Under the pieces are notes generated by a model. That model was not told the DNA's origin, made no database searches, and saw nothing but the letters and a program-made list of their open reading frames with translations. A DNA stretch of 62,521 nucleotides, the filler included, from Basidioascus undulatus (Eukaryota): assembly GCA_000826855.1 (NCBI GenBank). It is 6 parts of 6 records of this genome, joined end to end, with 100 filler letters (N's around TTAATTAATTAA, not from the genome) between each part and the next. Parts side by side here need not be neighbours in the genome. Positions count along the whole stretch, not along the records: positions 1 to 27,404 come from JTLS01000165.1; 5 more parts are not named here. One strand, given 5' to 3'. Made by a program: the position numbers and the translations under genes. This document shows, in pieces, positions 2,979-55,501 of the stretch (positions are counted from its first letter, which is position 1; each line of letters begins with the position of its first letter).

Positions 2979-4477
2979 GGCGGAGAGAGTGTGGGGATTG
3001 GTTGAACGGAGATTGTGATCACTTTGGTAATGAACACTGCAGTCTAGGGAGCATGCAATTCAGCACTGGGAAACGTTCGAGTATGGCACCGAGTGCGCCA
3101 GCTGCCAGGCGGCAACAGTCTGAGTGAGAACAGGTAAATATGCAGCGATACCTTCATCTCGTTGTTCGATGAAGGCACAAAGCGCGTGATGGAGATTTAA
3201 ACTTCTTTATAAGGTGCATGCTGATGGCGGACGGGCACTCAGGCAGTGCTGCCGCTGCGTTCGCACTCGATCTCCTGAGAATCGAAGCCATAGATCAGGC
3301 TGACGTACCATTCTGCAATGCATGTCGAAGTACTCACGTGGGGCACTATCTGGCGGCGCAGTGGCCGCGTGAAAGTGGGTCAGTGGAATCATGCCGCAAC
3401 GTTCTGTTCAGTCGCCTGCACCCTCTGCCATTTCTCGGAATGTTGCAGTTCGTGCGTCTCATATTAACCGAATCAGAACACTTTCACCTTCGTAAGCAGT
3501 ACCTCCATCCCCGTGTAGACTCTGTAAGAGGTGGTGAAAGCGCTCATTCGAGTCCGGGCCCGAGACCCCGCGCTTTGTCATCGGAACGCGTCTCGCTGCG
3601 ACGCTTGCGCATTCACCACGACCATCACATTCCCCATGGACGCTCCATTCGATCCCTCGACGTAGTACCTCTTTCATCCGAATCCACTGATATTTGGCAC
3701 CGAGGAACTTGACCAATTTCTGACATCTCTCGGCCCTGCGCCCGCTGCGGCTTCGAGTCCAATCAAATCCTGAGCTCGAGCTACCGCCGCACGCCCTCTT
3801 GAACGGCGCGTCGGGCCTTCCATCTTAGCGGGACTTTAGCGTGGAGAATGGGGAGGGTGCGGTGAATGCGGGTACAGCAGACGTGGCAGACGCGCCTGCG
3901 GCGACAGACCAGATCGGCACCTCGGAAAGTGAGCTTTCATCCTCACAACCCCCCCAATTTGGTGTTCAAAGAGGAGAACTGGATCGAGCGAAAGTCTTCT
4001 TCGACATCTTCGCAACCGTCGCCGTCTTCATCGTCGAACAAGACGACGTCGCCGGGTACGCCTTCGTCGTCGCATTGCCGTCGTCCCCAGACGCTGAAAC
4101 TGAAACGCTCGATTCGTGCAGTGGACGATGCACCGTCGGATCCGGTAGAGGTAAGCTGTTCAGTCCTGTTCGTCTTCCCAAGGCGTTTTCTAGCCAGTTA
4201 ACTTATTCCAAATTCCATACAGCGTCGGCGCGAGCGACACTGCATTAACCAGCGCGCACATCGGCAATGCAAGCTCGACCGCATCACCGAGGTGATTTCG
4301 GAACTCATTCTTAACACCACCCGCTTTACCTGAAATTTGACTGACCACTTCTCCTGGATCAGCCTCGGTGGCAAGCAAGATTCCGAACACGATCCTCGTT
4401 GTCTCTTCGGATCCCTGTGGGTGGTACTTGACGTTCTTGATATTCCATTTAGCCTCTCCACATTTTCAAGGACTTAT

Positions 4478-4488
4478 TAGTCCAGCGG
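4478..4488 (+). promoter_or_regulatory. Pol III A-box-like element in the leader of the permuted tRNA
   Basis: TAGTCCAGCGG fits TRGYNNARNGG and lies upstream of the B box GTTCAATCC (4512-4520). Confidence 0.6.
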
Positions 4489-4496
4489 CATTGATC

Positions 4497-4576
4497 ATGG
4501 TGAGGTCGGTCGTTCAATCCGGCCAATGGGCAATTCAGGTGCCCGTTTAGCTCAGTGGTAGAGCGCGCCACTCGTA
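4497..4576 (+). tRNA. Circularly permuted tRNA-Thr(CGT): 3' half 4497-4532, 8-nt spacer 4533-4540, 5' half 4541-4576
   Basis: 5' half GCCCGTT TA GCTC AGTGGTA GAGC G CGCCA CT CGT A; 3' half A TGGTG AGGTC GGTCG TTCAATC CGGCC AATGGGC A. Acceptor (7 bp), D (4 bp), anticodon (5 bp) and T (5 bp) stems all pair, allowing G-U. Confidence 0.85.
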
Positions 4577-4583
4577 CGGTCGC

Positions 4584-4588
4584 TTTTT
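4584..4588 (+). terminator. Pol III oligo-T terminator after the permuted tRNA
   Basis: TTTTT begins 7 nt after the end of the 5' half (…CGTA cggtcgc TTTTT). Confidence 0.65.
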
Positions 4589-5571
4589 ACAGCTCAAACG
4601 AGCAGGAGGGGGCCCCGCAATGCGGGTAAGCCCAGCCCGAAGACTCTGAAAAGCTGGTCTTTTGTCGACGGTTTTCAATTCAGTTGACGATTTCAAGTCG
4701 CAAAAGCAGGCGTAAAGCGCGTATACGGACATAAAGTGTGCGGAGTGGTGAGCTCAGACGCTTTGATCGCGATGATCCACTGACAGTCGATCTTTCAGCC
4801 AGACGTCCACTTCCTTTTTGTCTCCCTAGCTTTCGCATCAACTAACTGAAATTCGGTTTTGAAAGCAGTCCAATAAAGTCTGAGTAGTTAGCAGATGTTC
4901 GGATATGAGACGACGTTGAGTCGCCCGCCGATGCAGACCGGTGTCTGGGGGGAATTCGAACATTCTGTAACACACTTCAAACATGGAGATCCCTGTTTAT
5001 ACTTTCTGGAGCTGGGCGTGCTTAGTAGGGCAGTTGGATCGACCAGGGCTCGCCGGTGGCTGACACGAATGCCCGCGCCGCCGAAACTGTGGGTATAACT
5101 GCTATGAGGATGCTATTGTAAGCCAGCATGCCAGACATGTTGCTAAAGAATGAAAAGGGTAAAATCACCTGTTGCGCTGGCGCTGGCCCCCCAGTCGGTT
5201 GTTATTTCAATAGGTAGCGAAAACTTTAACGTGCTCTCTTCACACCCGGGTACCTCTGTCTACCGCCAATACACACGGCTTCGCAGGTCTGCCATAGATT
5301 CCGTAGAGACCTGAATGTATTCTGCATCCAAGGCCTTCGTGCCAGCCTGCCAGGACACCGATGCAACTTATGCGTTTCACCTCTCATCCGTCCACATGCC
5401 CGTTGCATGCGGCCCGCTTTGATCTCCTAGGCGATGCCCGGGAATTTTTCCTTCTTCCATGCTCCATGCTCTCCACTTGCGTGCCTTCGGTTATTTGTCC
5501 TCTTCCCCTCGTCTGCCACTCTACCCATTACGGCTCTGTCGCAACTAGTACCCATCCGCACATCCGCTTCA

Positions 5572-7122: not shown

Positions 7123-8072
7123 GGAAGAGCGTGTAGCCTAATCAAATGCTTCTTCAAGCCATGTGTTACAAGATATGTAGTTTTTCGGCTGTATTGTCAA
7201 ACTTTTTTCATTGGTACTGTGCCACCAATACGAGAGCTTGACGGCGAGGCTCAGCACGGCAACGGGTGCGCAAATGCATCCCTCGTTTTCGCGTGAGTTA
7301 GCGCTATCGTGACCGAGGCGCTACCACTCATGTCCGCAACAAGCGGACACACATCGCTCGAACTTCAGCTGGAATTGCTACAGCACACCTCCGTCCTCGC
7401 CAACGGAGCATAGACGGCGTGGAGAGTTCAGACGCACATTGACTCCTCGGTTTGCTTGGGGTTGTGAAGGCGGGAAATGCATGCTTTGTTCGATTCTTTT
7501 TTTCGCACATTCATTATTCGCTTCGTGCATCGCTGCAATCGAAAAGAGCGCGCTGGGCGTGCGTTAGGAGCTGTCCCTCGCACTACGGACTCACCATCCC
7601 CCATCCTCTCCCTTGCCCTGTGTTTACCTAATAGTTGGGAAAATATCTCGGACGGTAACATACAGGACTGAATAAGAGCACCCTCTGAATTTGATACTCC
7701 TTGCGGCTCAGGGCACGGTCTCCAAGTATTTGGTCTGGAAAAACACCATCGGTGCTCATCACACCTTCGCGAGTGATTTTTACGGTTGGGAACTGAAAAT
7801 CTCCTGGGTTAAATGGCTTTAAATGCGTGAACCATCGTTGCTGCTTCACAGGGAAAGTGAAAGTGCGATTGCTCGTATGCAAACTGTTGCTGCAGCTCCG
7901 GAAAGAATGCACATCATCTTCACACTGCTGAAAACACGACCTCCGTTTCTAACTGCAGTGCCCTGCATGTTATAATACTGCTTCTCGCTCGGTAATCAGG
8001 GCACTGTTCATCGTTTATCACCTCCCTTACCTAATTTATTTCATGCAATTAGCGTCTTAAACTCAGTTGCAT

Positions 8073-8145
8073 GGGCATTTGGTGTAGGGGCTATCACATC
8101 TCATTCGCATTGAGGGGGTCCCCGGTTCAATTCCGGGAATGTCCA
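8073..8145 (+). tRNA. tRNA-Ala(CGC)
   Basis: 73-nt cloverleaf, G3:U70 pair, anticodon loop TT CGC AT, GGTTCAATTCC B box, downstream T5. Confidence 0.93.
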
Positions 8146-9157
8146 GTCTTTTTGCTTTTACAACCAAGCCGGGTGCTTGTAACCAACTAGAGGTCAAGCT
8201 GCGAAGCGAGGCGGAACGGCCAACTTTTACGCAGCGTACGAAGAGTCTCCCAAGGGAGCCACTCGGCCCGGTCCGGCCTTTCGTTATATGAGCAAACCCG
8301 GGGTGGTACACTCGCATTCTCTACGAATCCCACAGAGTGGGAAGGGCTGCAGGTGCCAGGTCAGGCCGAAAACACTTCTTTACAGCCCGCTGCAGCTTCA
8401 CTGCGTCCACTCGGCATGAAGTCGCTTTGTAACATTACGCTCATTTCCAGGCCCAGAACATACAGGTATAGCTTGAAAGGGCATGAATAATCACCTTCAA
8501 GGAGAATCCCGGAAAGCGACCTGCATTATCCAGGCTGAGCTGCAGTTCCGCTTCACGTTCGTGAGCGACTTAGACCAGTAATCAACCAGACCTTCTGCAC
8601 TGCGGCAGTTTGATCGAGTATGTATACATTATTTTCGGCCCTGATTCTGCTTTTCTTCTTCTTACAGTCAGGTAGATCAGAGGGAGTGCTACGGGAGAGG
8701 AACCTACAGTAAGAGGCTGGCGAGACTGCGGCACCGCTTAGAGCATCTTCTGTTTAGTGCAATGGTCCTTCTTACTAGAGCATAATAACAACATGAGAGA
8801 CTTTTCAAGAATGTCTTCTTATCAACCGGAACTATCGCAGAACTGCCAGTGCGGTGTAGCCAGCCTCAGGCGGGCAAGTGGGCCGTGTCTTGCCGGTCTG
8901 GACGATCTTGAAATGCACGTAAACCCCATACTCACCGTTCTGAAGCATCTCTGGTATTCTTTTTTATTTCAAAATTGGCTTGCAGTGTGCGCAGTCGAAC
9001 GCTGAGGCGAACACCGACTGCGCACCTTGTTTGGCGCTCGCAGGACTCGCATGTTCAGCTTTCACGCGGAAACCAGAATTTGGGCGGGCAGCATGTCTTG
9101 CCTTCTCCCTTCACGCCCACCTCGTCTTCCTCGCTCGACCATCCCCCTCTAATCGTC

Positions 9158-12351: not shown

Positions 12352-12459
12352 CGACCAGAGCAGGATTTGAACCTACGCGGGCAGAGCCCAACAGATGAAC
12401 AAGCTAGAAACGTGAAAACACATTCTAGTCTGTCGCCTTAACCACTCGGCCATCTGGTC
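12352..12459 (-). tRNA. tRNA-Ser(AGA) with 26-nt intron at 37/38 (12397-12422)
   Basis: GACCAGA/TCTGGTC acceptor, G73, long variable arm GGGCTCTGCCC, GGTTCAAATCC B box. Confidence 0.92.
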
Positions 12460-15227: not shown

Positions 15228-16842
15228 ATGTTGCGCCTGAGCAGACCTCTCTCCTTGTCCGCGGCGTCATGCAGGGCGTTCTCGACGTCGCGCGTAGCAA
15301 CATCGGCGGCGGCGGCGGCGGTTGTCGAGTCTGAGCTCCCAGACAAGCGGGCGGCGATCAGAGTATGTCGTCCTCTTGCTTTTCGGTGCCCCTTCGCCAC
15401 CCTGACGCGTGCTTGTGGCTTGCTCGAGCAGGCGAGGATCGACCAGCTCGATATGGAGCTTCCGTTCTCCCCGTTCTTGACCGATACGTTTGCGAGGCAG
15501 CACGACTATCTCCGCATCTCGCTCACGGAGAAGTGCAACTTGCGCTGTGCGTCATCCTTCCTTCTTCCCTCTTGGATTGGGCGCTGAGCCAGGGCGTCTG
15601 GTATCACAGGCACATACTGCATGCCGGACGCAGGCATCGACTTGACGCACAAGGACGAGCTGCTCACGGACGACGAGGTCGTCCGCCTCGCGGAGCTCTT
15701 TGTTCGCGAGGGCGTGACGAAGATCCGGTTGACGGGCGGGGAGCCGACGGTCAGGAAGGGGTTCGTGGAGTTGGTGGGTGAGTGTCCCCTTCCTGAGACA
15801 GCGCGAAACGGTTTGTGGTATGCTGACAAGTGGTCCCCCGCAGGGCGCCTGAACGAGCTCCGTCCCCTCGGCCTCAAGCAGATCGCCATGACCACCAACG
15901 GCCTCGCGCTCCACCGCAAACTGCCGCAACTGGTGGAGAACGGATTGACGAATATCAACCTCTCGTGCGTGAAGTCCCAACCGCCGCTTGGGCACCGTCG
16001 CTGACTGCGGGACCTCTTACAGCCTCGATACCATGGACCCTTTCAAGTTCGAGCTCATCACTCGCCGGCGAGGTGCACTCTCACCCCTCCCCCTCCCAGC
16101 ATCCCCTCTCCAACTCACTCTAAACCCTCTCCACGCAGGCCACTCCGCCGTCCTCTCCTCGCTCCAAGCCGCGCTCTCCCTGCCGCTCACCGTGAAGCTC
16201 AACGTCGTCGTGATCAAAGCGCTGAACCTGCCCGAAGTGCCGGACTTCGTCGCGCTGACGCGCGACAACTCGCTCGAGGTGCGCTTCATCGAGTTCATGC
16301 CGTTCGATGGCAACAGGTGGGACGAGGGCAAGCTCGTCCCCACCGCGGACCTGATCGGGCTCATCCGCGCGCGCCACCCGACGCTCACGAAGGTCGAGGA
16401 CGAGGCGAACGAGACGAGCAGGGGGTGGCATGTTCCTGGGTGGAAGGGGAAGATCGGGTTCATTTCGAGGTGCGCTGGCTGGCTTGACTTTCTCTTCTGG
16501 CTTGGGACGCTGGACTGAACGATGCGCCGGATCCGCAGCATGACTGACCACTTCTGCTCGTCCTGCAACCGGCTGCGCATTACAGCGGACGGGAACCTGA
16601 AGGCACGTCCGCGCTCCCTCACCCACCCATTCTCATCTTCCAGCTGACACGCTGCGTGCGCGCAGGTCTGCCTCTTCGGCAACTCCGAAGTCTCCCTGCG
16701 CGACGTGCTCCGTTTGGGCGCGTCCGACGCCGAGCTGCTGGACGTGATCGGCGCGGCGGTGGGGCGCAAGAAGGCCGCGCACGCAGGCATGTCGGTTCTG
16801 CAGCGCACTACGATGCGCCCGATGATCAAGATTGGGGGCTGA
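15228..16842 (+). CDS. MOCS1: GTP 3',8-cyclase, MOCS1A/MoaA cistron with mitochondrial presequence
   Basis: [27 protein letters not shown] (radical SAM CX3CX2C), [43 protein letters not shown], ending [11 protein letters not shown]. Confidence 0.93.
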
Positions 16843-16954
16843 TCGTGTTCTCCCCTGGTCTAGGTACGCTTTGGCTTTCACATGCACTTTCCTCCCGGCT
16901 GCGCTCGCTCGATATACTTTGCAAAATGAAGAAGCTGACGCCGGATGTGTTGGT

Positions 16955-17807
16955 ATGGATGCAGCTCTTCCGAGACGAAGCACGCGCCGGGCGGCGCGCG
17001 TCGACTCGTTCCTCCCCCTCCGCCGCCCATCCCTCCTCCCCTCTTCTCTTCTCCCCACCCAACAGCCGGTCCACCTCCTCCCCCCCTCCCGCCTCTTCCA
17101 CAATTCCCCTTTCACCTGCACCAAAACCGACGCCTCCTCCCCCAAGACCGCTGCGCACCCCTCTTCCTCCTCGTTCTCCGACGCCCCCAAACTCACCCAC
17201 CTCGACGCCGAGGGCAACGCGCGCATGGTCTCCGTCACGCACAAAGCGGCGACGCACCGGCGCGCGACGGCCCAGGCGCGGATCTACCTCAACGCCGCGG
17301 CGTTCGAGCTCGTCGTCAACCCGCCGCGGTCGGACGAGGCGATCAAGCGCGGCAAGCCCGGGAAGGGCGACGTGCTCTCTGTTGCGCAGGTGCGTCTTCC
17401 ATCCCTCCACAACCACCTCCTTCCTCCCTCAGATGCTGATCCGTCGGGCGCCCCTACAGCTCGCAGGCATCATGGCCACGAAACAAACCTCCACCCTCAT
17501 CCCACTTTGCCATCCCCTCCCTCTAACCTCCGTGCGCGTCACACTGCACCCGGAGCGCGAAACGCACTCCGTCCTCGTGCGCTGCACGACCGAGTGCCTC
17601 GGCCCGACCGGCGTCGAGATGGAGGCGATCATGGGCGCGAACGCCGCGGCGCTCGTGGTGTGGGACATGGTGAAGGCTGTTGCAGGGCGCGATATGCGCA
17701 TTGGGGATGTCATGGTGCTGGAAAAGAGCGGCGGGAAGAGTGGGGATTGGGAGAGGCGGGGGGATAGGGCGAGGAAGAGCGGGAAGGACGAGAAGGGGGA
17801 GAGCTGA
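16955..17807 (+). CDS. MOCS1: cPMP synthase, MOCS1B/MoaC cistron (start uncertain)
   Basis: LTHLDAEGNARMVSV...KGDVLSVAQ|LAGIMATKQTSTLIPLCHP...TGVEMEA...WDMVKAV...LEKSGGKSGDW; intron 17390-17459. Confidence 0.92.
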
Positions 17808-33111: not shown

Positions 33112-34431
33112 TCAAGCTCCCAATCCCCTCTTCGACACCTTGATAACTGCGCTGAGCGGCTCGTGCAGCCCACCGGACACGCCGATGCGCTCGCCCGACG
33201 TCCAGCCCATCATCGCGAGGAGCCTGTACCCGACGTTCTGTCCGCGCAAACCACCCACCCCACTCAGCAGCCACCCTCAATCCCACCTGACCTCCAAAAA
33301 AGCACTCACGTCCTCCGCAATCGGCTTCGCCTCCCCACCAACGAGCGCGCCCTCCTTGTTGCGGCCCGAACCGCCCGGCCCGGCGGCGGCCTTGCCGCCC
33401 TTCTTGACGCCTTTCCCAGCGCCGCCGTCCGCGTAGAGGCCCTTGTAGAACATGCCCAGGCCGCCCTCCGCGCCGGCATTGACGGCGCGCGCGACGCGCG
33501 CCTCGTCAATGCCGATGCCCGAGCGCGAGGTCCGTATGAGCGTCGTGAAGCGCTGCTTGCCCGTGCCGACGCTCTTGCTTTTCAGCGACTGTGGGTGAGG
33601 GGAGAGGAGTGAGTGGATCTGCGTTCGCGTTGAAGAGAGGGAGGAGACCAGGCGTACGTAACATTCAGCGAGGACATGAACCTGCTCGGCCCCAGCGCAC
33701 GCGTCAGCCAGCGCCTTGCGAACCGCCCCCCGCGCGCCGCGCCCACGCACCTGCTTCCTCGACTTCTTGTCCATGGGCGGAAGGCTCAACGACCCCTTGC
33801 CCAGGTCCTTCAAGAACCGCCTGATCTCATTGTTGACGCCGACGAGGTCCATGAGGCCCTTGCCGGCGAGGGCCTGCGCGCGGGCCTTGCGCGCCTTCTT
33901 CCCGCCGCCGCCCTTGGCGAGGGAGAACTCGAGCCGCTCGAGGTTCCGCGCGCGCTTGCGGTCCGCCTTCTTCAGGCGGTCGGCTTCCCACTGCGCTTGA
34001 AGCGCCGGCGGGACGCCGCCCATTTTCTTCTTTTTGCCTGAGCCTGCGGAGCGAAAGTCGTCTTTCGTCAGACATCCATCGAACGGGTTGAGGGAGCACA
34101 GTGACGGAAGGGGGGGGGAAAGGGGGCGTGGTGAATGGGGGAGATGGTAGACGGGGAGGTGAAAGGGTTGAGTAAGAAGAGGGGCCACGACGCACCGCTC
34201 GCCAAAGCAAAGAGCATGTCGTCTGGGTCGATCGCCCAGTCGTCGCCGTACCCGTCATTATCCACAAGGTCCCTAAAGAACTTCTTCCTGCTGCGCCGGT
34301 CCCACTTGACCGCGTCCTCCTCGTCGATGATGCGCTGTTCCACCCACCCAATCTTATCAGCACCGTCCCCACACCCATCCATCCCCCTTCCCTATTCCTC
34401 CCCCTTCGCCTTCGCCCGCTCCCTCCCCCCC
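33112..34431 (-). CDS. SQS1: R3H + G-patch protein (Sqs1-like), 5'-truncated
   Basis: LPPMDKKSRKQVHVLAECY.LKSKSVGTG (R3H); IAEDNVGYRLLAMMGWTSGERIG...KRGLG (G-patch). Confidence 0.82.
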
Positions 34432-38892: not shown

Positions 38893-38964
38893 TGAGGGAC
38901 ACCCGACTTGAACGGATAACCTTGCGATCTGGAGTCGCACGCGCTACCATTGCGCCAGCCCCCC
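38893..38964 (-). tRNA. tRNA-Trp(CCA), intronless
   Basis: GGGGGGC/GTCCCTC acceptor, GCGC D stem, TGCGA CT CCA GA TCGCA, GTTCAAGTC. Confidence 0.92.
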
Positions 38965-39454
38965 GGTGACATCCGTTGTCAAAGTGCAAATCCATGAGTT
39001 TGACACTGAGAAAAGTGTTTAGGCTTAAGGATGCGAGGGGGGATGACACTGTGCACGTCTTGTTGGTCCTGGGCCGTGAGCTTCGTTGAACAGTCACCTC
39101 TGATTAATCTGATTCGGTCGCGATGGTTGTCTAGGTGGTATAAAAGGATCAGGGTACAGGCGATGTGCAGCATAGTCTCTCAGAGGAGTGAAGAGCCGCA
39201 GCAGGGAGGTCCTGCAGGGCGCTGTTGTGAAAGTATGCTTGCCTTTTGTTTCCCAGTTGTCTGACTCGAACTCTTAAGACAGCTTTGAAGTGGATCTTCA
39301 GGTAGATGACACAGATGTGCTCTTCTGGCACTCTGAGGGGCCGACAAAGAAGTCGCTCCCTGCGCTGTAGACTGCGGCATCGGTTCGTCTTCCTTAGATC
39401 ATTGACCATAAGTAGTGTTCCTGCACTTGCACAAGGGAAAAAGTGCAAAATAGC

Positions 39455-39527
39455 TGGACATTCCCGGAATTGAACCGGGGACCCCCTCAATGCGAATGAG
39501 ATGTGATAGCCCCTACACCAAATGCCC
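39455..39527 (-). tRNA. tRNA-Ala(CGC), identical to 8073-8145
   Basis: Reverse complement matches the 73-nt gene at 8073; flanks differ. Confidence 0.93.
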
Positions 39528-40226
39528 ATGTAGTTTTTCCCTGCAAAAGTAATTTACATTACAAACACATCAACTTTTATAGCTTACCCAAATTCTTTCC
39601 TGCCATTTCTTAATGGACATAATTTTGAGGGTCAGCCTTTGTCGATGCAAACCGCAGTGAAAGATGTCCTGTACGGCCACGCTTCAAATCGACTTCAGTC
39701 CCACCAGCTCGGCCACCGAGCTGGGCCTCCTCGTCCCCGTTTGTTTGGCGTCTTTGAATTATGCTTTTCCTTATATTACAAGCAGCTGTTGCACTTCATC
39801 TGCGCAGTCTTAAAGCGGAGAAAGAGGAGAAAGCGCACGCGCGCCGACAGGTGCATCCAGAATCCGCCTCTCTTGTCTTTCCTTCCCCGCTCGTCACGTA
39901 ACACGCCTTCACCTCCTCATCGTCGTTGTTGCTTCCCAAATGTCTCACCCGCTCATAAAAGCAAGCTCTGCATCCTCGGCGCCTTGCGGTGCCTGACGAT
40001 GGCGTCGGCAACTGACATCCCCGCGACAACGCGTCGGTCGCGCCCCTCGTCCAGGCCAGCGCCTGCCCTGCCCCTTCGCTCCTTTCCTTGTGCCCGCCAT
40101 CGCGGGTCGCGAGCCCAAAGCCGGGGACTTCGGATTACTCGTACAATCATGAACTAATGCAGGGTGTACTTGACCATTGGCCCCTCTCATCCGTCTTCCT
40201 TCCCTTCGCCTTCGCTTCAAATCGCG

Positions 40227-53477: not shown

Positions 53478-54425
53478 TGCTGCGCGTTTTGAGGCTGTCA
53501 CGACATTATGCTTTGATAGGTGCCTCAATGAAAGGGCTCGGGAGGGGTTGATGGGCAGAGTCAAGGAGGCGCTCAGCGAACGATTGCATGCCGGGCTCCG
53601 GAAGTAACTTGGAGTCACTGGAACCAAAACAGGGGAGGTGCATTTGACAGTTTAAGACTATTTCCATGACCCTTGTTTGGCAAACTCACTACTCACTCTG
53701 TGCCATTGTGCGTCGTGGAACTGTGCAATGTTGGCGCACGGTGCCATTAACTGTCATACATACTATGCATACCGTCGACTCCCCCAAGTTGGCGCGAACC
53801 CAGCAAGGTAATATGAGCGAATACTGTTGCCACCTCGAACATGACATTCGAAAAAGAAACTTCTCGAAAGACTGTGATGTGGGCGCTTCTTGTTTCGTAT
53901 GGTTGTTATGCTTTTGTTGCGTCTGTGCAGCTGGGTGCCACGGTGACCTGCTACTGCCTGCCACCTGCCTCCGTGCCGTTGTCTCCTTTCGACCCACCTT
54001 TCTCCACTGTCCTTCCCTTGTTAGATCCTGTAGTCAATTGCATCCTTGGCCTCCAAAGCTCGGCCTGGGTGCTAAGTCCAATTCGCCCAGCCTCTGGACG
54101 ACCTGCGATGATGAGCGGCGCTGTTGGTGATACTTCCTCGACTGCATCTTCCTCCACAGATACATTTAAACATGTCTAAATCCTTGCTACATCTGTGCTC
54201 CATTATATGGCGACAGAGACTGTTGAGCGTGTAGCCCGCGACCATCCAAAGTCTGACTTCAGAGTACTAAAAATTGCGTACATGAAGGGCAATCGGGCAC
54301 TGTACCGGGACAGATTTAGTACATTACCTATCGATTTTGTGGCTACCTTCACAGTTGCGGGTACTCAGACGTCTCCATCAAAAATATCTGCTCGCACTGC
54401 AGGGCAGAGAAAAACAGCAAAACAT

Positions 54426-54504
54426 TGACAAGAGTGGGATTCGAACCCACGAACCGAAGACTAGCACCTGAAGCTAGCGGATTTGACCACTTTCCTATCT
54501 TGCC
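54426..54504 (-). tRNA. tRNA-Leu(CAG)
   Basis: GGCAAGA/TCTTGTC acceptor, A73, CTAGC TT CAG GT GCTAG, GGTTCGAATCC B box, short extra arm. Confidence 0.88.
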
Positions 54505-55501
54505 ATCTCTCTCTACCAGATGGGTTTCAAAATAAATAAAGCTTCATTCACTGCAATTACCCTGGGTTGAAAGGAACAACTATCTCAAACCACAGAAGGC
54601 AATCGGCCAGTAGTGGATGTCCTCCTGCCTGGAAGACGATACCACGCCACTACTTACTATACACTCAGATATCTCCAGAACAATACAGTTTCTCGCCCTC
54701 GTCACTTTGCAGTGCTTGAAAGAATAGAATCTGCCCATATTTCCCCCTTTGTTGGGAGTATCGTCCGAACTGCAATGGCAACCGATGCGCCAGGTACTCA
54801 TTGTTTCATGCCTGCTTTCCACATCCGCAGCGCAACTTCTCCAAGCCATTTGCAATAAGTGATCCCCCCAAATATTATTCCCTGGTTGGTCTTTGAATTT
54901 CTGCATCCCGGATCTCCCTGACTCGAGCACCCAAGGGATTGCGCCCGACTGCCAGCTCGCAGCCTCAGCCGCCCGTGGCGTATGGACAAGGTCAGCCCGT
55001 TCGATTGTGGCTCAAGATAGACAAGCAAGAAAGCATAGTAAAGTATAAAATGCATAACCTAGGTGTTGATCTGCAGCTCCATGAGCGTCCCAAACCCGAC
55101 CAGCAAGCACCAGGCGAAGACCGCCCAGATCGCAGCCAGCCCCTTCGTTTCTCTGTCCGAAGAGCATATTATATCAGCCGCGCAGTTCTCGGTAAAAATG
55201 CTTTAAAGGGCCACCTTCGCGCCTCGCCAGCACGGCCCAGTCCCCCTTATCCACGACTCTCCCCGCCCCGCCCTCTATATCCGCCAACCCAAGTATGACC
55301 TCCTCCGGCACAGGGGGAGCGGGCCGCGGGCGGAACAATAACCAGAGGGGAAATACGAGCCAGGAGGGGAAGAAGAGGCGGATGATGAAGTAGTGTAGGG
55401 CGCGTGTTTGGGGGCGGAGCGCGCATGCGGGCGTGAGCTCGTGCGAGTATGCGGGCGGAAGGCTCAGAGAGACGGCGGAGGAGCCTGACGGGGAACGGTC
55501 A

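What the first reader, a model, noticed from the sequence alone, without database searches (positions are those of the whole stretch)
4497..4588. Circularly permuted tRNA-Thr(CGU) gene in a fungus
Seen: the tRNA 3' half (A38 through discriminator A73, 4497-4532) sits upstream of the 5' half (G1 through A37, 4541-4576). They are joined by an 8-nt linker ATTCAGGT and followed by a short trailer and T5. Reordered, they give a complete 72-nt cloverleaf: acceptor GCCCGTT/AATGGGC, D stem GCTC/GAGC, anticodon stem CGCCA/TGGTG around CT-CGT-AA, T stem GGTCG/CGGCC. The break falls exactly at the canonical 37/38 intron site. No downstream 3' half and no intact upstream 5' half is present. Established: permuted tRNA genes occur in Cyanidioschyzon merolae, prasinophyte green algae, a chlorarachniophyte nucleomorph and the archaeon Thermofilum. 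They mature through splicing-endonuclease cleavage, a circular intermediate, and tRNase Z/RNase P removal of the linker. I know of no fungal example. Inference: this is a functional gene that standard tRNA scanners would miss; ACG codons are common in the window's genes.
Basis: partly seen in the sequence, partly recalled or inferred. Interest (0 to 1): 0.95.

Follow-up and report, generated by a model that had tools for sequence, protein, structure and literature searches.

The report
Back-to-front threonine tRNA gene, fungus
A basidiomycete fungus carries a threonine tRNA gene written with its back half in front of its front half, apparently one of several such copies, a layout so far reported only from algae and one archaeon, which ordinary tRNA finders miss.

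Summary
At 4497-4576 (+) a tRNA 3' half (A38-A73), an 8-nt linker and the matching 5' half (G1-A37) lie in that order. Reordered by script, they give a flawless 72-nt tRNA-Thr(CGU). ARAGORN and Rfam miss the gene as it stands.

The flanks fit a type II (37/38) permuted gene:
- Leader and trailer pair, leaving both predicted cut sites unpaired, with a 3-nt bulge at the 3' site. Only 16 of 3000 random flank pairs match this.
- A T5 run follows A37 by 7 nt.
- The upstream stretch is AT-rich, as at the five ordinary tRNA genes of the window.

Contigs of two DNA runs of the same organism show further loci with the same layout but other linkers, flanks and acceptor pairs. The 5'-half 31-mer stands at about nine-fold depth, and no laid contig shows an ordinary context.

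Protein hits place the organism in Basidiomycota. ACG is its commonest Thr codon in the stretches counted. Five literature searches found no fungal case.

Not shown: expression, the circular intermediate, absence of an ordinary Thr(CGU) gene, and conservation in relatives. Confidence that it is functional: about 0.7.

The parts
4457..4485 (+). AT-rich stretch 40 to 12 nt upstream of the first coded tRNA base. Candidate upstream (TFIIIB/TATA-like) promoter element; inferred.
   Evidence: AT fraction is 0.62. The same stretch of the five ordinary tRNA genes of the window gives 0.55-0.76. The window mean is 0.415, and 5.3% of 29-nt windows reach 0.62.
4484..4496 (+). Leader, the 3' part of the 'intron equivalent'. 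4484-4489 (AGCGGC) pairs with the trailer. 4492-4494 (UGA) pairs with U33-G35. 4495-4496 together with A38 form a 3-nt bulge that holds the predicted 3' cut (4496|4497).
   Evidence: MFE and centroid fold of 4478-4590; control with random flanks.
4497..4532 (+). tRNA-Thr 3' half, A38 to discriminator A73. It holds the anticodon-stem 3' strand, variable loop, T arm with B box (4512-4520) and acceptor 3' strand.
   Evidence: An X3 contig matches 4361-4532 without a difference.
4533..4540 (+). Intervening sequence (linker) ATTCAGGT, which closes the acceptor stem as a loop. It would be removed by RNase P (4540|4541) and tRNase Z (4532|4533). Inferred.
   Evidence: It contains no T-run. Its length lies within the 1-74 bp reported for known permuted genes (passages of PMC3978253).
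4541..4576 (+). tRNA-Thr 5' half, G1 to A37. It holds the acceptor 5' strand, D arm with A box (4548-4558), anticodon-stem 5' strand and anticodon CGT (4573-4575).
   Evidence: The 31-mer 4547-4577 stands as a contig of depth 160 in X1, against about 18 for single-copy flanks.
4577..4584 (+). Trailer, the 5' part of the 'intron equivalent'. The predicted 5' cut is 4576|4577. 4579-4584 (GUCGCU) pairs with the leader.
4584..4588 (+). T5 run, candidate RNA polymerase III terminator.
   Evidence: The five ordinary tRNA genes of the window each show a T4 or T5 run within about 20 nt of their 3' end.

Best explanation
This is a working, circularly permuted (type II, junction 37/38) gene for tRNA-Thr(CGU) in a basidiomycete fungus, and probably one member of a multi-copy family of such genes.

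Proposed pathway (all steps inferred from the anatomy and from the pathway shown in Cyanidioschyzon):
1. RNA polymerase III, placed by an upstream AT-rich element, starts near 4484 and stops in the T5 run at 4584-4588.
2. The transcript folds into a cloverleaf whose acceptor stem is closed by the 8-nt linker. Its anticodon arm is extended by a leader-trailer helix, a relaxed bulge-helix-bulge.
3. The tRNA-splicing endonuclease cuts at 4576|4577 and 4496|4497.
4. The tRNA ligase joins A37 to A38, giving an 80-nt circle.
5. RNase P and tRNase Z excise the linker, and CCA is added.

The product reads ACG, the commonest Thr codon in the stretches counted (19 of 33).
For: 1. The reordered halves form a flawless 72-nt tRNA-Thr(cgt). 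The window's 3245 acceptor-like hairpins yield no other such case.

2. The MFE equals the centroid fold of 4478-4590 and is exactly the permuted cloverleaf. It adds a 6-bp leader-trailer helix, a 3-bp leader-anticodon helix, a 3-nt bulge UC|A at the 3' cut, and an open loop UA|CG at the 5' cut. Among 3000 random flank pairs from the window, 63 gave cloverleaf plus at least 6 leader-trailer pairs plus four unpaired cut-site bases. Only 16 also had the 3-nt bulge.

3. T5 follows A37 by 7 nt and the linker has no T-run. The upstream -40..-12 stretch is as AT-rich as at the five ordinary tRNA genes.

4. Other loci of the same genome:
- A contig of 12.4 kb in X1 and 29 kb in X2 holds, well inside it, a tRNA 3' end plus discriminator. 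An 11-nt linker follows (printed as a loose end), then the 5' half (4540-4577, 2 differences), then a 5-nt stretch and T4GT4.
- A second single-copy contig (10.9 kb) aligns over 4497-4576, with indels only in the linker and acceptor region.
- Further contigs end the 5' half in TC+T5 or in a trailer like the window's plus T5 (depth about 3 copies).
- By my reading of the edit tables, the acceptor stems of two paralogues differ from the window's by paired changes that keep pairing (6:67 U-A to C-G; 4:69 C-G to U-A; 5:68 G-U to C-G).
- The 31-mer 4547-4577 has depth 160 against about 18, so about 9 copies.
- In X2, five contigs cover 4545, with summed depth 371 (about 7 copies). Four run upstream into a linker and a 3' half. 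The fifth has only 6 more letters. None shows an unrelated 5' flank.
- No contig continues from A37 into A38.

5. ACG makes up 19 of 33 Thr codons.

6. The layout, linker length and T-stretch match type II permuted genes, including Thr(CGT) of C. merolae.
Against: - No RNA evidence exists for the mature tRNA, the ligated 37/38 junction or the circle.
- No genome is held. An ordinary Thr(CGU) gene cannot be excluded, because short tRNA-only contigs may have been filtered out. About 4 of the roughly 9 copies of the 5'-half 31-mer have an unseen 3' continuation.
- The window's own linker join (4526-4547) is not covered by any laid DNA contig.
- The bulge-helix-bulge is relaxed. The central helix has 3 bp rather than 4, C32 is unpaired, and the 5' cut lies in a 4x2 internal loop.
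- A leader-trailer helix of at least 6 bp is common on its own: 459 of 2000 random flank pairs.
- The z-score of the whole fold is only -2.08, and 3 of 200 shuffles fold as well.
- The B box lies upstream of the A box, so ordinary TFIIIC-directed transcription would not fit. The upstream element is only an AT-rich patch.
- No relatives could be examined, so conservation is unknown.
- The paralogue sequences are partly my reconstruction from edit tables, not printed contigs.
Confidence: 0.7

Rival explanations
1. A dead rearrangement product, or a small repeat family seeded by one. A tandem duplication of an intron-containing tRNA-Thr gene, or a reverse-transcribed circular or dimeric precursor, left 3' half, spacer and 5' half. 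This unit was copied around the genome. Ordinary Thr(CGU) genes do the decoding.
For: No expression data. An ordinary Thr(CGU) gene cannot be excluded without the genome. About 4 of the roughly 9 copies of the 5'-half 31-mer have an unseen continuation and could be ordinary intron-containing genes whose intron starts with C. The published origin models for permuted genes pass through exactly such intermediates.
Against: No base of the tRNA body has decayed. The flanks show no vestige of the outer halves. Each copy seen has its own linker and flanks but keeps the tRNA parts, a T-run right behind the 5' half, and acceptor changes that stay paired. That is the pattern of a tRNA gene family under selection. 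The leader-trailer structure puts both cut sites in the open (16 of 3000 random flanks).
Confidence: 0.15
2. A tRNA-like element with a job other than decoding. One possibility is a processing signal in the 3' untranslated region of the + strand mRNA that overlaps it, cut by RNase P or tRNase Z as in mascRNA-type elements. Another is a small Pol III RNA with a permuted tRNA-like module, as in YrlA.
For: An X3 contig is spliced at two GT..AG introns on the + strand. It runs through the leader and 3' half and stops exactly at A73 (4532). The next contig starts at 4578. One reading frame stays open across both junctions and stops at 4429-4431, which would put the element 65 nt into a 3' UTR. Rfam's weak best full-length match is YrlA: 20.8 bits, against a gathering score of 69.
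Against: The anticodon stem-loop is split but perfectly kept, with CGT in about 9 copies of the 31-mer. YrlA-type mimics lack the anticodon arm. The other copies sit in unrelated flanks with their own T-runs, which fits independent Pol III genes rather than one mRNA's signal. Contig ends are not RNA ends, as the tool itself warns.
Confidence: 0.1
3. An assembly artefact: two unrelated contig ends that finish in tRNA-Thr repeats were joined wrongly.
For: The DNA contigs of X1 and X2 break at 4525 and 4548, and none carries the window's letters in between.
Against: Each flank alone is already odd: a 3' half with no 5' half before it, and a 5' half followed by T5. The leader (4484-4489) and trailer (4579-4584) are complementary. 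An X3 contig confirms the sequence up to 4532. Paralogous contigs in two runs of different years bridge 3' half, linker and 5' half inside long contigs.
Confidence: 0.04

Closest known systems
Type II (junction 37/38) circularly permuted tRNA genes of Cyanidioschyzon merolae, including its Thr(CGT) and Thr(AGT) genes (Soma et al. 2007; table 1 of PMC3978253, passages seen)
   Same: The 3' half lies upstream of the 5' half on one strand, and the junction is at 37/38. A short intervening sequence closes the acceptor stem. Leader and trailer pair around the cut sites. A T-stretch follows the 5' half and no terminator lies in the linker. The upstream region is AT-rich. The anticodon is even the same.
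   Different: The host is a basidiomycete fungus, not an alga. The linker is 8 nt, against 31 bp in the C. merolae Thr(CGT) gene. The junction motif is relaxed, with a 3-bp central helix. The gene appears in several copies with about nine-fold depth of the 5' half, whereas the table lists the algal genes once per anticodon apart from one duplicated Gly(CCC). Expression and the circular intermediate are shown there and not here. Independent origin is likely (inference).
Permuted tRNA genes of green algae (Ostreococcus, Micromonas; Maruyama et al. 2010), the Bigelowiella natans nucleomorph, and Auxenochlorella (PMC12636532, passage)
   Same: Mostly type II junctions. The genes are missed by tRNAscan-SE and were found because the tRNA set was incomplete.
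   Different: All are photosynthetic lineages, with other anticodons (Ser, Leu, Cys, Arg and others in the part of the table I saw). I saw no multi-copy family among them.
Permuted tRNA-iMet and tRNA-Tyr of the archaeon Thermofilum pendens (Chan, Cozen and Lowe 2011; as summarised in PMC3978253)
   Same: A circular permutation resolved by the splicing endonuclease.
   Different: The junction is at 59/60 in the T loop. CCA is encoded in the gene. The linker can be as short as 1 nt. The endonuclease is archaeal and depends on the bulge-helix-bulge.
YrlA / Y RNA-like tRNA mimic (Rfam RF02553)
   Same: The order T arm, acceptor stem, D arm inside a closing helix. This is why the model gives a weak full-length match.
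   Different: The score of 20.8 bits is far below the gathering score of 69. YrlA is a bacterial family (recalled). Here a complete anticodon arm with CGT can be restored by one ligation.
Ordinary intron-containing tRNA genes of the same window, e.g. tRNA-Ser(AGA) at 12352-12459 (-)
   Same: The same cut position, 37/38. The intron's last bases (UUGUUC before A38, by my parse) resemble the leader's last bases (UUGAUC before A38). The 3' flank carries a T4 run.
   Different: There the halves are in the normal order, the intron is 26 nt, and the gene is found by ARAGORN -i and by Rfam at 50.2 bits.

Membership tests
Circularly permuted tRNA genes (type II, junction 37/38) | The 3' part of the tRNA is coded upstream of the 5' part on the same strand, joined by a short intervening sequence at the acceptor ends. 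| tested here: met
   4497-4532, 4533-4540 and 4541-4576. The 8-nt linker lies within the reported 1-74 bp.
Circularly permuted tRNA genes (type II, junction 37/38) | The reordered parts give a canonical cloverleaf with the conserved bases and a sense anticodon. | tested here: met
   ARAGORN on the script-joined halves calls tRNA-Thr(cgt), 72 nt. It is the only such case among 3245 candidate hairpins.
Circularly permuted tRNA genes (type II, junction 37/38) | Leader and trailer form a bulge-helix-bulge or a relaxed form of it, placing the cuts at the junction. | tested here: met
   Met in relaxed form only: a 3-nt bulge at the 3' cut, a 3-bp central helix, a 4x2 loop at the 5' cut, and a 6-bp outer helix. 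16 of 3000 random flank pairs do as well. The strict hBHBh' form is not met. Relaxed forms are accepted for the family.
Circularly permuted tRNA genes (type II, junction 37/38) | A terminator T-stretch behind the 5' part and none in the intervening sequence. | tested here: met
   T5 at 4584-4588; the linker is ATTCAGGT.
Circularly permuted tRNA genes (type II, junction 37/38) | An upstream promoter (TATA-like) that can drive transcription despite the inverted order of the A and B boxes. | tested here: inconclusive
   The -40..-12 stretch has AT 0.62, as at the five ordinary tRNA genes (0.55-0.76). No clear TATA box is present, and 5.3% of all windows are as AT-rich.
Circularly permuted tRNA genes (type II, junction 37/38) | Expression through a circular intermediate to a mature, CCA-tailed, aminoacylated tRNA. 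| not testable with these tools
   No RNA run was listed. The one read-laying run used contigs only.
Circularly permuted tRNA genes (type II, junction 37/38) | The permuted gene is needed: no ordinary gene exists for the same anticodon (the argument used for C. merolae). | tested here: inconclusive
   No genome is held. Among laid contigs none shows an ordinary context, either a 5' flank before G1 or A38 after A37. Contigs show presence, not absence.
YrlA (Rfam RF02553) | A score at or above the family's gathering threshold. | tested here: not met
   20.8 bits against a gathering score of 69.

The most novel reading that the evidence does not exclude
All, or nearly all, of the roughly nine tRNA-Thr(CGU) genes of this basidiomycete are circularly permuted. 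Reading ACG, the commonest Thr codon in the stretches counted (19 of 33), would then depend on cutting, circularising and re-opening the precursor with the ordinary fungal splicing endonuclease, Trl1-type ligase, RNase P and tRNase Z. That would be the first permuted tRNA genes in fungi (indeed outside algae and archaea), and an expanded permuted gene family rather than single genes. The copy in the window may in addition be fed from a Pol II mRNA 3' UTR.
Probability: 0.35. Interest if true: 0.9.

Novelty: new member of a known kind. Interest (0 to 1): 0.8.

Why it matters
In the papers I could search, up to 2026, permuted tRNA genes are reported only from a red alga, some green algae, a nucleomorph and one archaeon. 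They are discussed there as an algal or archaeal peculiarity.

A fungal case, and a multi-copy one, would matter in several ways:
- It would show that the standard opisthokont-type tRNA-splicing machinery can sustain such genes.
- It would show that the layout arose again independently.
- It would mean that fungal tRNA annotations made with tRNAscan-SE, ARAGORN or Rfam can silently lack a whole isoacceptor.
- It would give a culturable heterotroph in which to test why permuted genes persist, and whether the circular intermediate has a role.

Tried and rejected
- **Whole genome:** none is held. I made no genome-wide scan for ordinary or permuted Thr genes.
- **Sequencing runs:** no RNA holder was listed.
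- **Contig holes:** X1 and X2 contigs leave 4526-4547 of the window's own version uncovered. X3 contigs leave 4533-4577 uncovered. These holes prove nothing.
- **Metagenome scan:** I searched for a Thr(CGU)-type 5' half followed within 12 nt by TTTT and got 10 loci. ARAGORN -i of the 10 as ordinary intron-containing tRNAs and gives no call for the other 3. None has a 3' half printed upstream, so no relatives were found.
- **Earlier findings of this scan:** nothing for this genome, for look-alike sequence or for relatives. No fungal permuted tRNA among the notes.
- **Vestiges of a tandem duplication in the flanks:** none.
- **Leader-trailer helix as a statistic on its own:** rejected, because 459 of 2000 random flank pairs give at least 6 such pairs. 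The 'cloverleaf kept' count of 0 came from an index slip of mine and was redone.
- **Whole-fold z-score:** weak, at -2.08.
- **Rfam tRNA hit at 4541-4604 (21.6 bits, below 29):** it pairs the 5' acceptor strand with a chance downstream AACGAGC. I rejected it as a gene model.
- **ARAGORN -i 'tRNA-SeC' with a 770-nt intron at 33352-34213:** treated as a false call.
- **Pfam on 12 and then 89 long open frames:** nothing named next to the locus.
- **Atlas search:** it only said eukaryote.

Full report
**What is there**

One search shows, on the + strand:
- 4497-4532: a tRNA 3' half (A38, anticodon-stem strand UGGUG, variable loop AGGUC, T arm, acceptor strand AAUGGGC, discriminator A).
- 4533-4540: ATTCAGGT.
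- 4541-4576: the matching 5' half (acceptor strand GCCCGUU, D arm, anticodon-stem strand CGCCA, loop CU-CGU-A).
- 4577-4583: the 7-nt trailer CGGTCGC.
- 4584-4588: T5.

A script joined the two halves from window.fa, and ARAGORN called the product tRNA-Thr(cgt). It is 72 nt, every stem is paired, and the usual invariant bases are in place.

As it stands in the genome, the gene is invisible to standard tools.
- ARAGORN finds four other tRNAs, or five real ones with introns allowed.
- Rfam at gathering scores finds those five and not this one.
- With loose thresholds, Rfam gives a sub-threshold tRNA hit that uses only the 5' half (21.6 bits against 29). It also gives a weak YrlA match that merely reflects the permuted topology (20.8 against 69).

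**Is it more than chance?**

I listed all 3245 places in the window, on both strands, where a 7-bp acceptor-like stem closes a loop of up to 42 nt. For each I joined the 55 nt on either side and ran ARAGORN with introns allowed. Only this locus gave a tRNA. Neither half recurs in the window at up to three mismatches. The flanks carry no significant remnant of the missing outer halves.

**The host**

No genome is held.
- The window has short GT..AG introns and genes for MoaA/MoaC, a Ras-family GTPase, mitochondrial S15, and R3H, UBA and SYO1-like proteins.
- A MoaC exon finds its best named hits only in Basidiomycota, at up to 66% identity.
- An S15-domain exon finds 17 hits. All 11 named ones are Basidiomycota, at 32-43% identity.
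- The host is therefore a basidiomycete fungus without a close relative in that collection.

**Flanks and fold**

The MFE and centroid structure of 4478-4590 is the permuted cloverleaf.
- The acceptor stem is closed by the linker.
- The anticodon stem is extended by a 3-bp helix between U33-G35 and UGA of the leader.
- A 6-bp helix joins leader 4484-4489 to trailer 4579-4584.
- The predicted 3' cut (4496|4497) lies in a 3-nt bulge, UC|A.
- The predicted 5' cut (4576|4577) lies in an open loop, UA|CG.

This is a relaxed bulge-helix-bulge, not the strict form. The statistics need care.
- The whole-fold z-score is only -2.08.
- A leader-trailer helix of at least 6 bp arises with 459 of 2000 random flank pairs.
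- The full picture is rarer. Cloverleaf kept, at least 6 leader-trailer pairs and all four cut-site bases unpaired arises in 63 of 3000 pairs. Adding a 3-nt bulge at the 3' cut leaves 16 of 3000.

Other flank features also fit.
- The T5 run sits where a Pol III terminator should, as at the window's five ordinary tRNA genes.
- The -40..-12 stretch is as AT-rich (0.62) as theirs (0.55-0.76). The background is 0.415.
- The B box (4512-4520) lies upstream of the A box (4548-4558). Transcription would therefore have to rely on the upstream element, or on the B box alone. This is inferred, as it is for the algal genes.

**Other copies in the same genome**

This is the most telling result. Three coded runs hold the region: X1 from 2014, and X2 and X3 from 2025. 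I laid their Logan contigs on 4200-4900.

The window's own locus:
- The single-copy contigs end at 4525 and resume at 4548, as expected where a repeat breaks a de Bruijn graph.
- The 31-mer 4547-4577 is a contig of its own at depth 160 in X1, against 18-19 for the flanks. That is about nine copies of the 5' half, including CGU, A37 and the first trailer base.

Other contigs carry the same layout elsewhere:
- **A long contig (12.4 kb in X1, 29 kb in X2).** Well inside it lie a tRNA T-loop, an acceptor 3' strand and a discriminator. An 11-nt linker follows, all printed as a loose end. Then come the 5' half (4540-4577, two differences), five bases, and T4GT4.
- **A second single-copy contig (10.9 kb).** It aligns across 4497-4576, with indels confined to the acceptor and linker region. 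A non-tRNA leader precedes it.
- **Short contigs at one to three copies.** They align across the linker, in X2 with no gap.
- **Two further 3' continuations.** These are TC+T5, and a trailer like the window's plus T5 (about three copies).

Reading the edit tables, I reconstruct acceptor stems that differ from the window's by paired changes. These are 6:67 U-A to C-G in one paralogue, and 4:69 C-G to U-A plus 5:68 G-U to C-G in another. This is my reconstruction, not a printed contig.

In X2, the five contigs that cover 4545 sum to depth 371, about seven copies. Four continue upstream into a linker and 3' half. The fifth has only six more letters. None shows an unrelated 5' flank, and no contig continues from A37 into A38.

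Contigs show presence, not absence, and short tRNA-only contigs may have been filtered. About four of the nine copies have an unseen 3' continuation.

**Demand for the tRNA**

In 491 codons of Pfam-supported stretches, ACG is 19 of 33 Thr codons.

**What is known**

Passages of the 2014 review list 34 permuted tRNA genes (PMC3978253). They come from C. merolae, four prasinophytes, the B. natans nucleomorph and Thermofilum pendens.
- Type II (37/38) is the commonest junction.
- Intervening sequences run from 1 to 74 bp.
- C. merolae has permuted Thr(CGT) and Thr(AGT) genes.
- Maturation through a circular intermediate has been shown for C. merolae.

A 2025 paper adds Auxenochlorella. A 2026 review still names only unicellular algae among eukaryotes. 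Five full-text searches gave no fungal case. These searches cover only the open library held here.

**Verdict**

The best reading is a working type II permuted tRNA-Thr(CGU) gene belonging to a permuted family in a basidiomycete, at about 0.7.

| Rival | Probability |
|---|---|
| Dead rearrangement or repeat family | about 0.15 |
| tRNA-like element with another role, perhaps tied to the overlapping mRNA | about 0.1 |
| Misassembly | about 0.04 |

Four things are missing: any RNA evidence, a genome-wide census, direct read support for the window's own linker, and relatives.

Noticed in passing
window 4127-4900: Run X3 is labelled 'DNA?' but behaves as a transcriptome. One contig joins 4148 to 4221 and 4289/91 to 4361/63, both GT..AG on the + strand. 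It runs on through the leader and 3' half and stops exactly at 4532 (A73). The next contig starts at 4578. One frame stays open over both junctions and stops at 4429-4431, so the permuted gene would lie about 65 nt into the 3' UTR of a + strand gene. Whether the contig ends reflect RNA processing cannot be told from contigs.
   Followed up: partly
window 12352-12459 (-): tRNA-Ser(AGA) with a 26-nt intron (ARAGORN -i; Rfam 50.2 bits). By my parse at 37/38, the intron ends in UUGUUC before A38, close to the leader's UUGAUC before A38. Its 3' flank starts AATGCTTTTG, the same ten letters that follow the 5' half of one permuted paralogue.
   Followed up: partly
window 8072-8146 (+) and 39453-39528 (-): Two identical tRNA-Ala(CGC) genes. 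Together with Trp(CCA) at 38893-38964, Leu(CAG) at 54425-54505, Ser(AGA) and the permuted Thr, that makes six tRNA genes in 62.5 kb.
   Followed up: no
window, upstream of 12459 (-) and of 39528 (-): The motif AATGTAAAT lies about 16-30 nt upstream of both the Ser(AGA) gene and the second Ala(CGC) gene. It may be a shared upstream Pol III element. The permuted gene does not have it.
   Followed up: no
window 33352-34213 (-): ARAGORN -i calls a 'tRNA-SeC' with a 770-nt intron here. It overlaps an open frame with an R3H domain and has no Rfam support, so it is almost certainly a false call.
   Followed up: partly
window 15973-17807 (+): Exons of a fused MoaA/MoaC-type molybdenum cofactor gene (Mob_synth_C and MoaC domains), as in the longer fungal hits that carry all three domains.
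   Followed up: no
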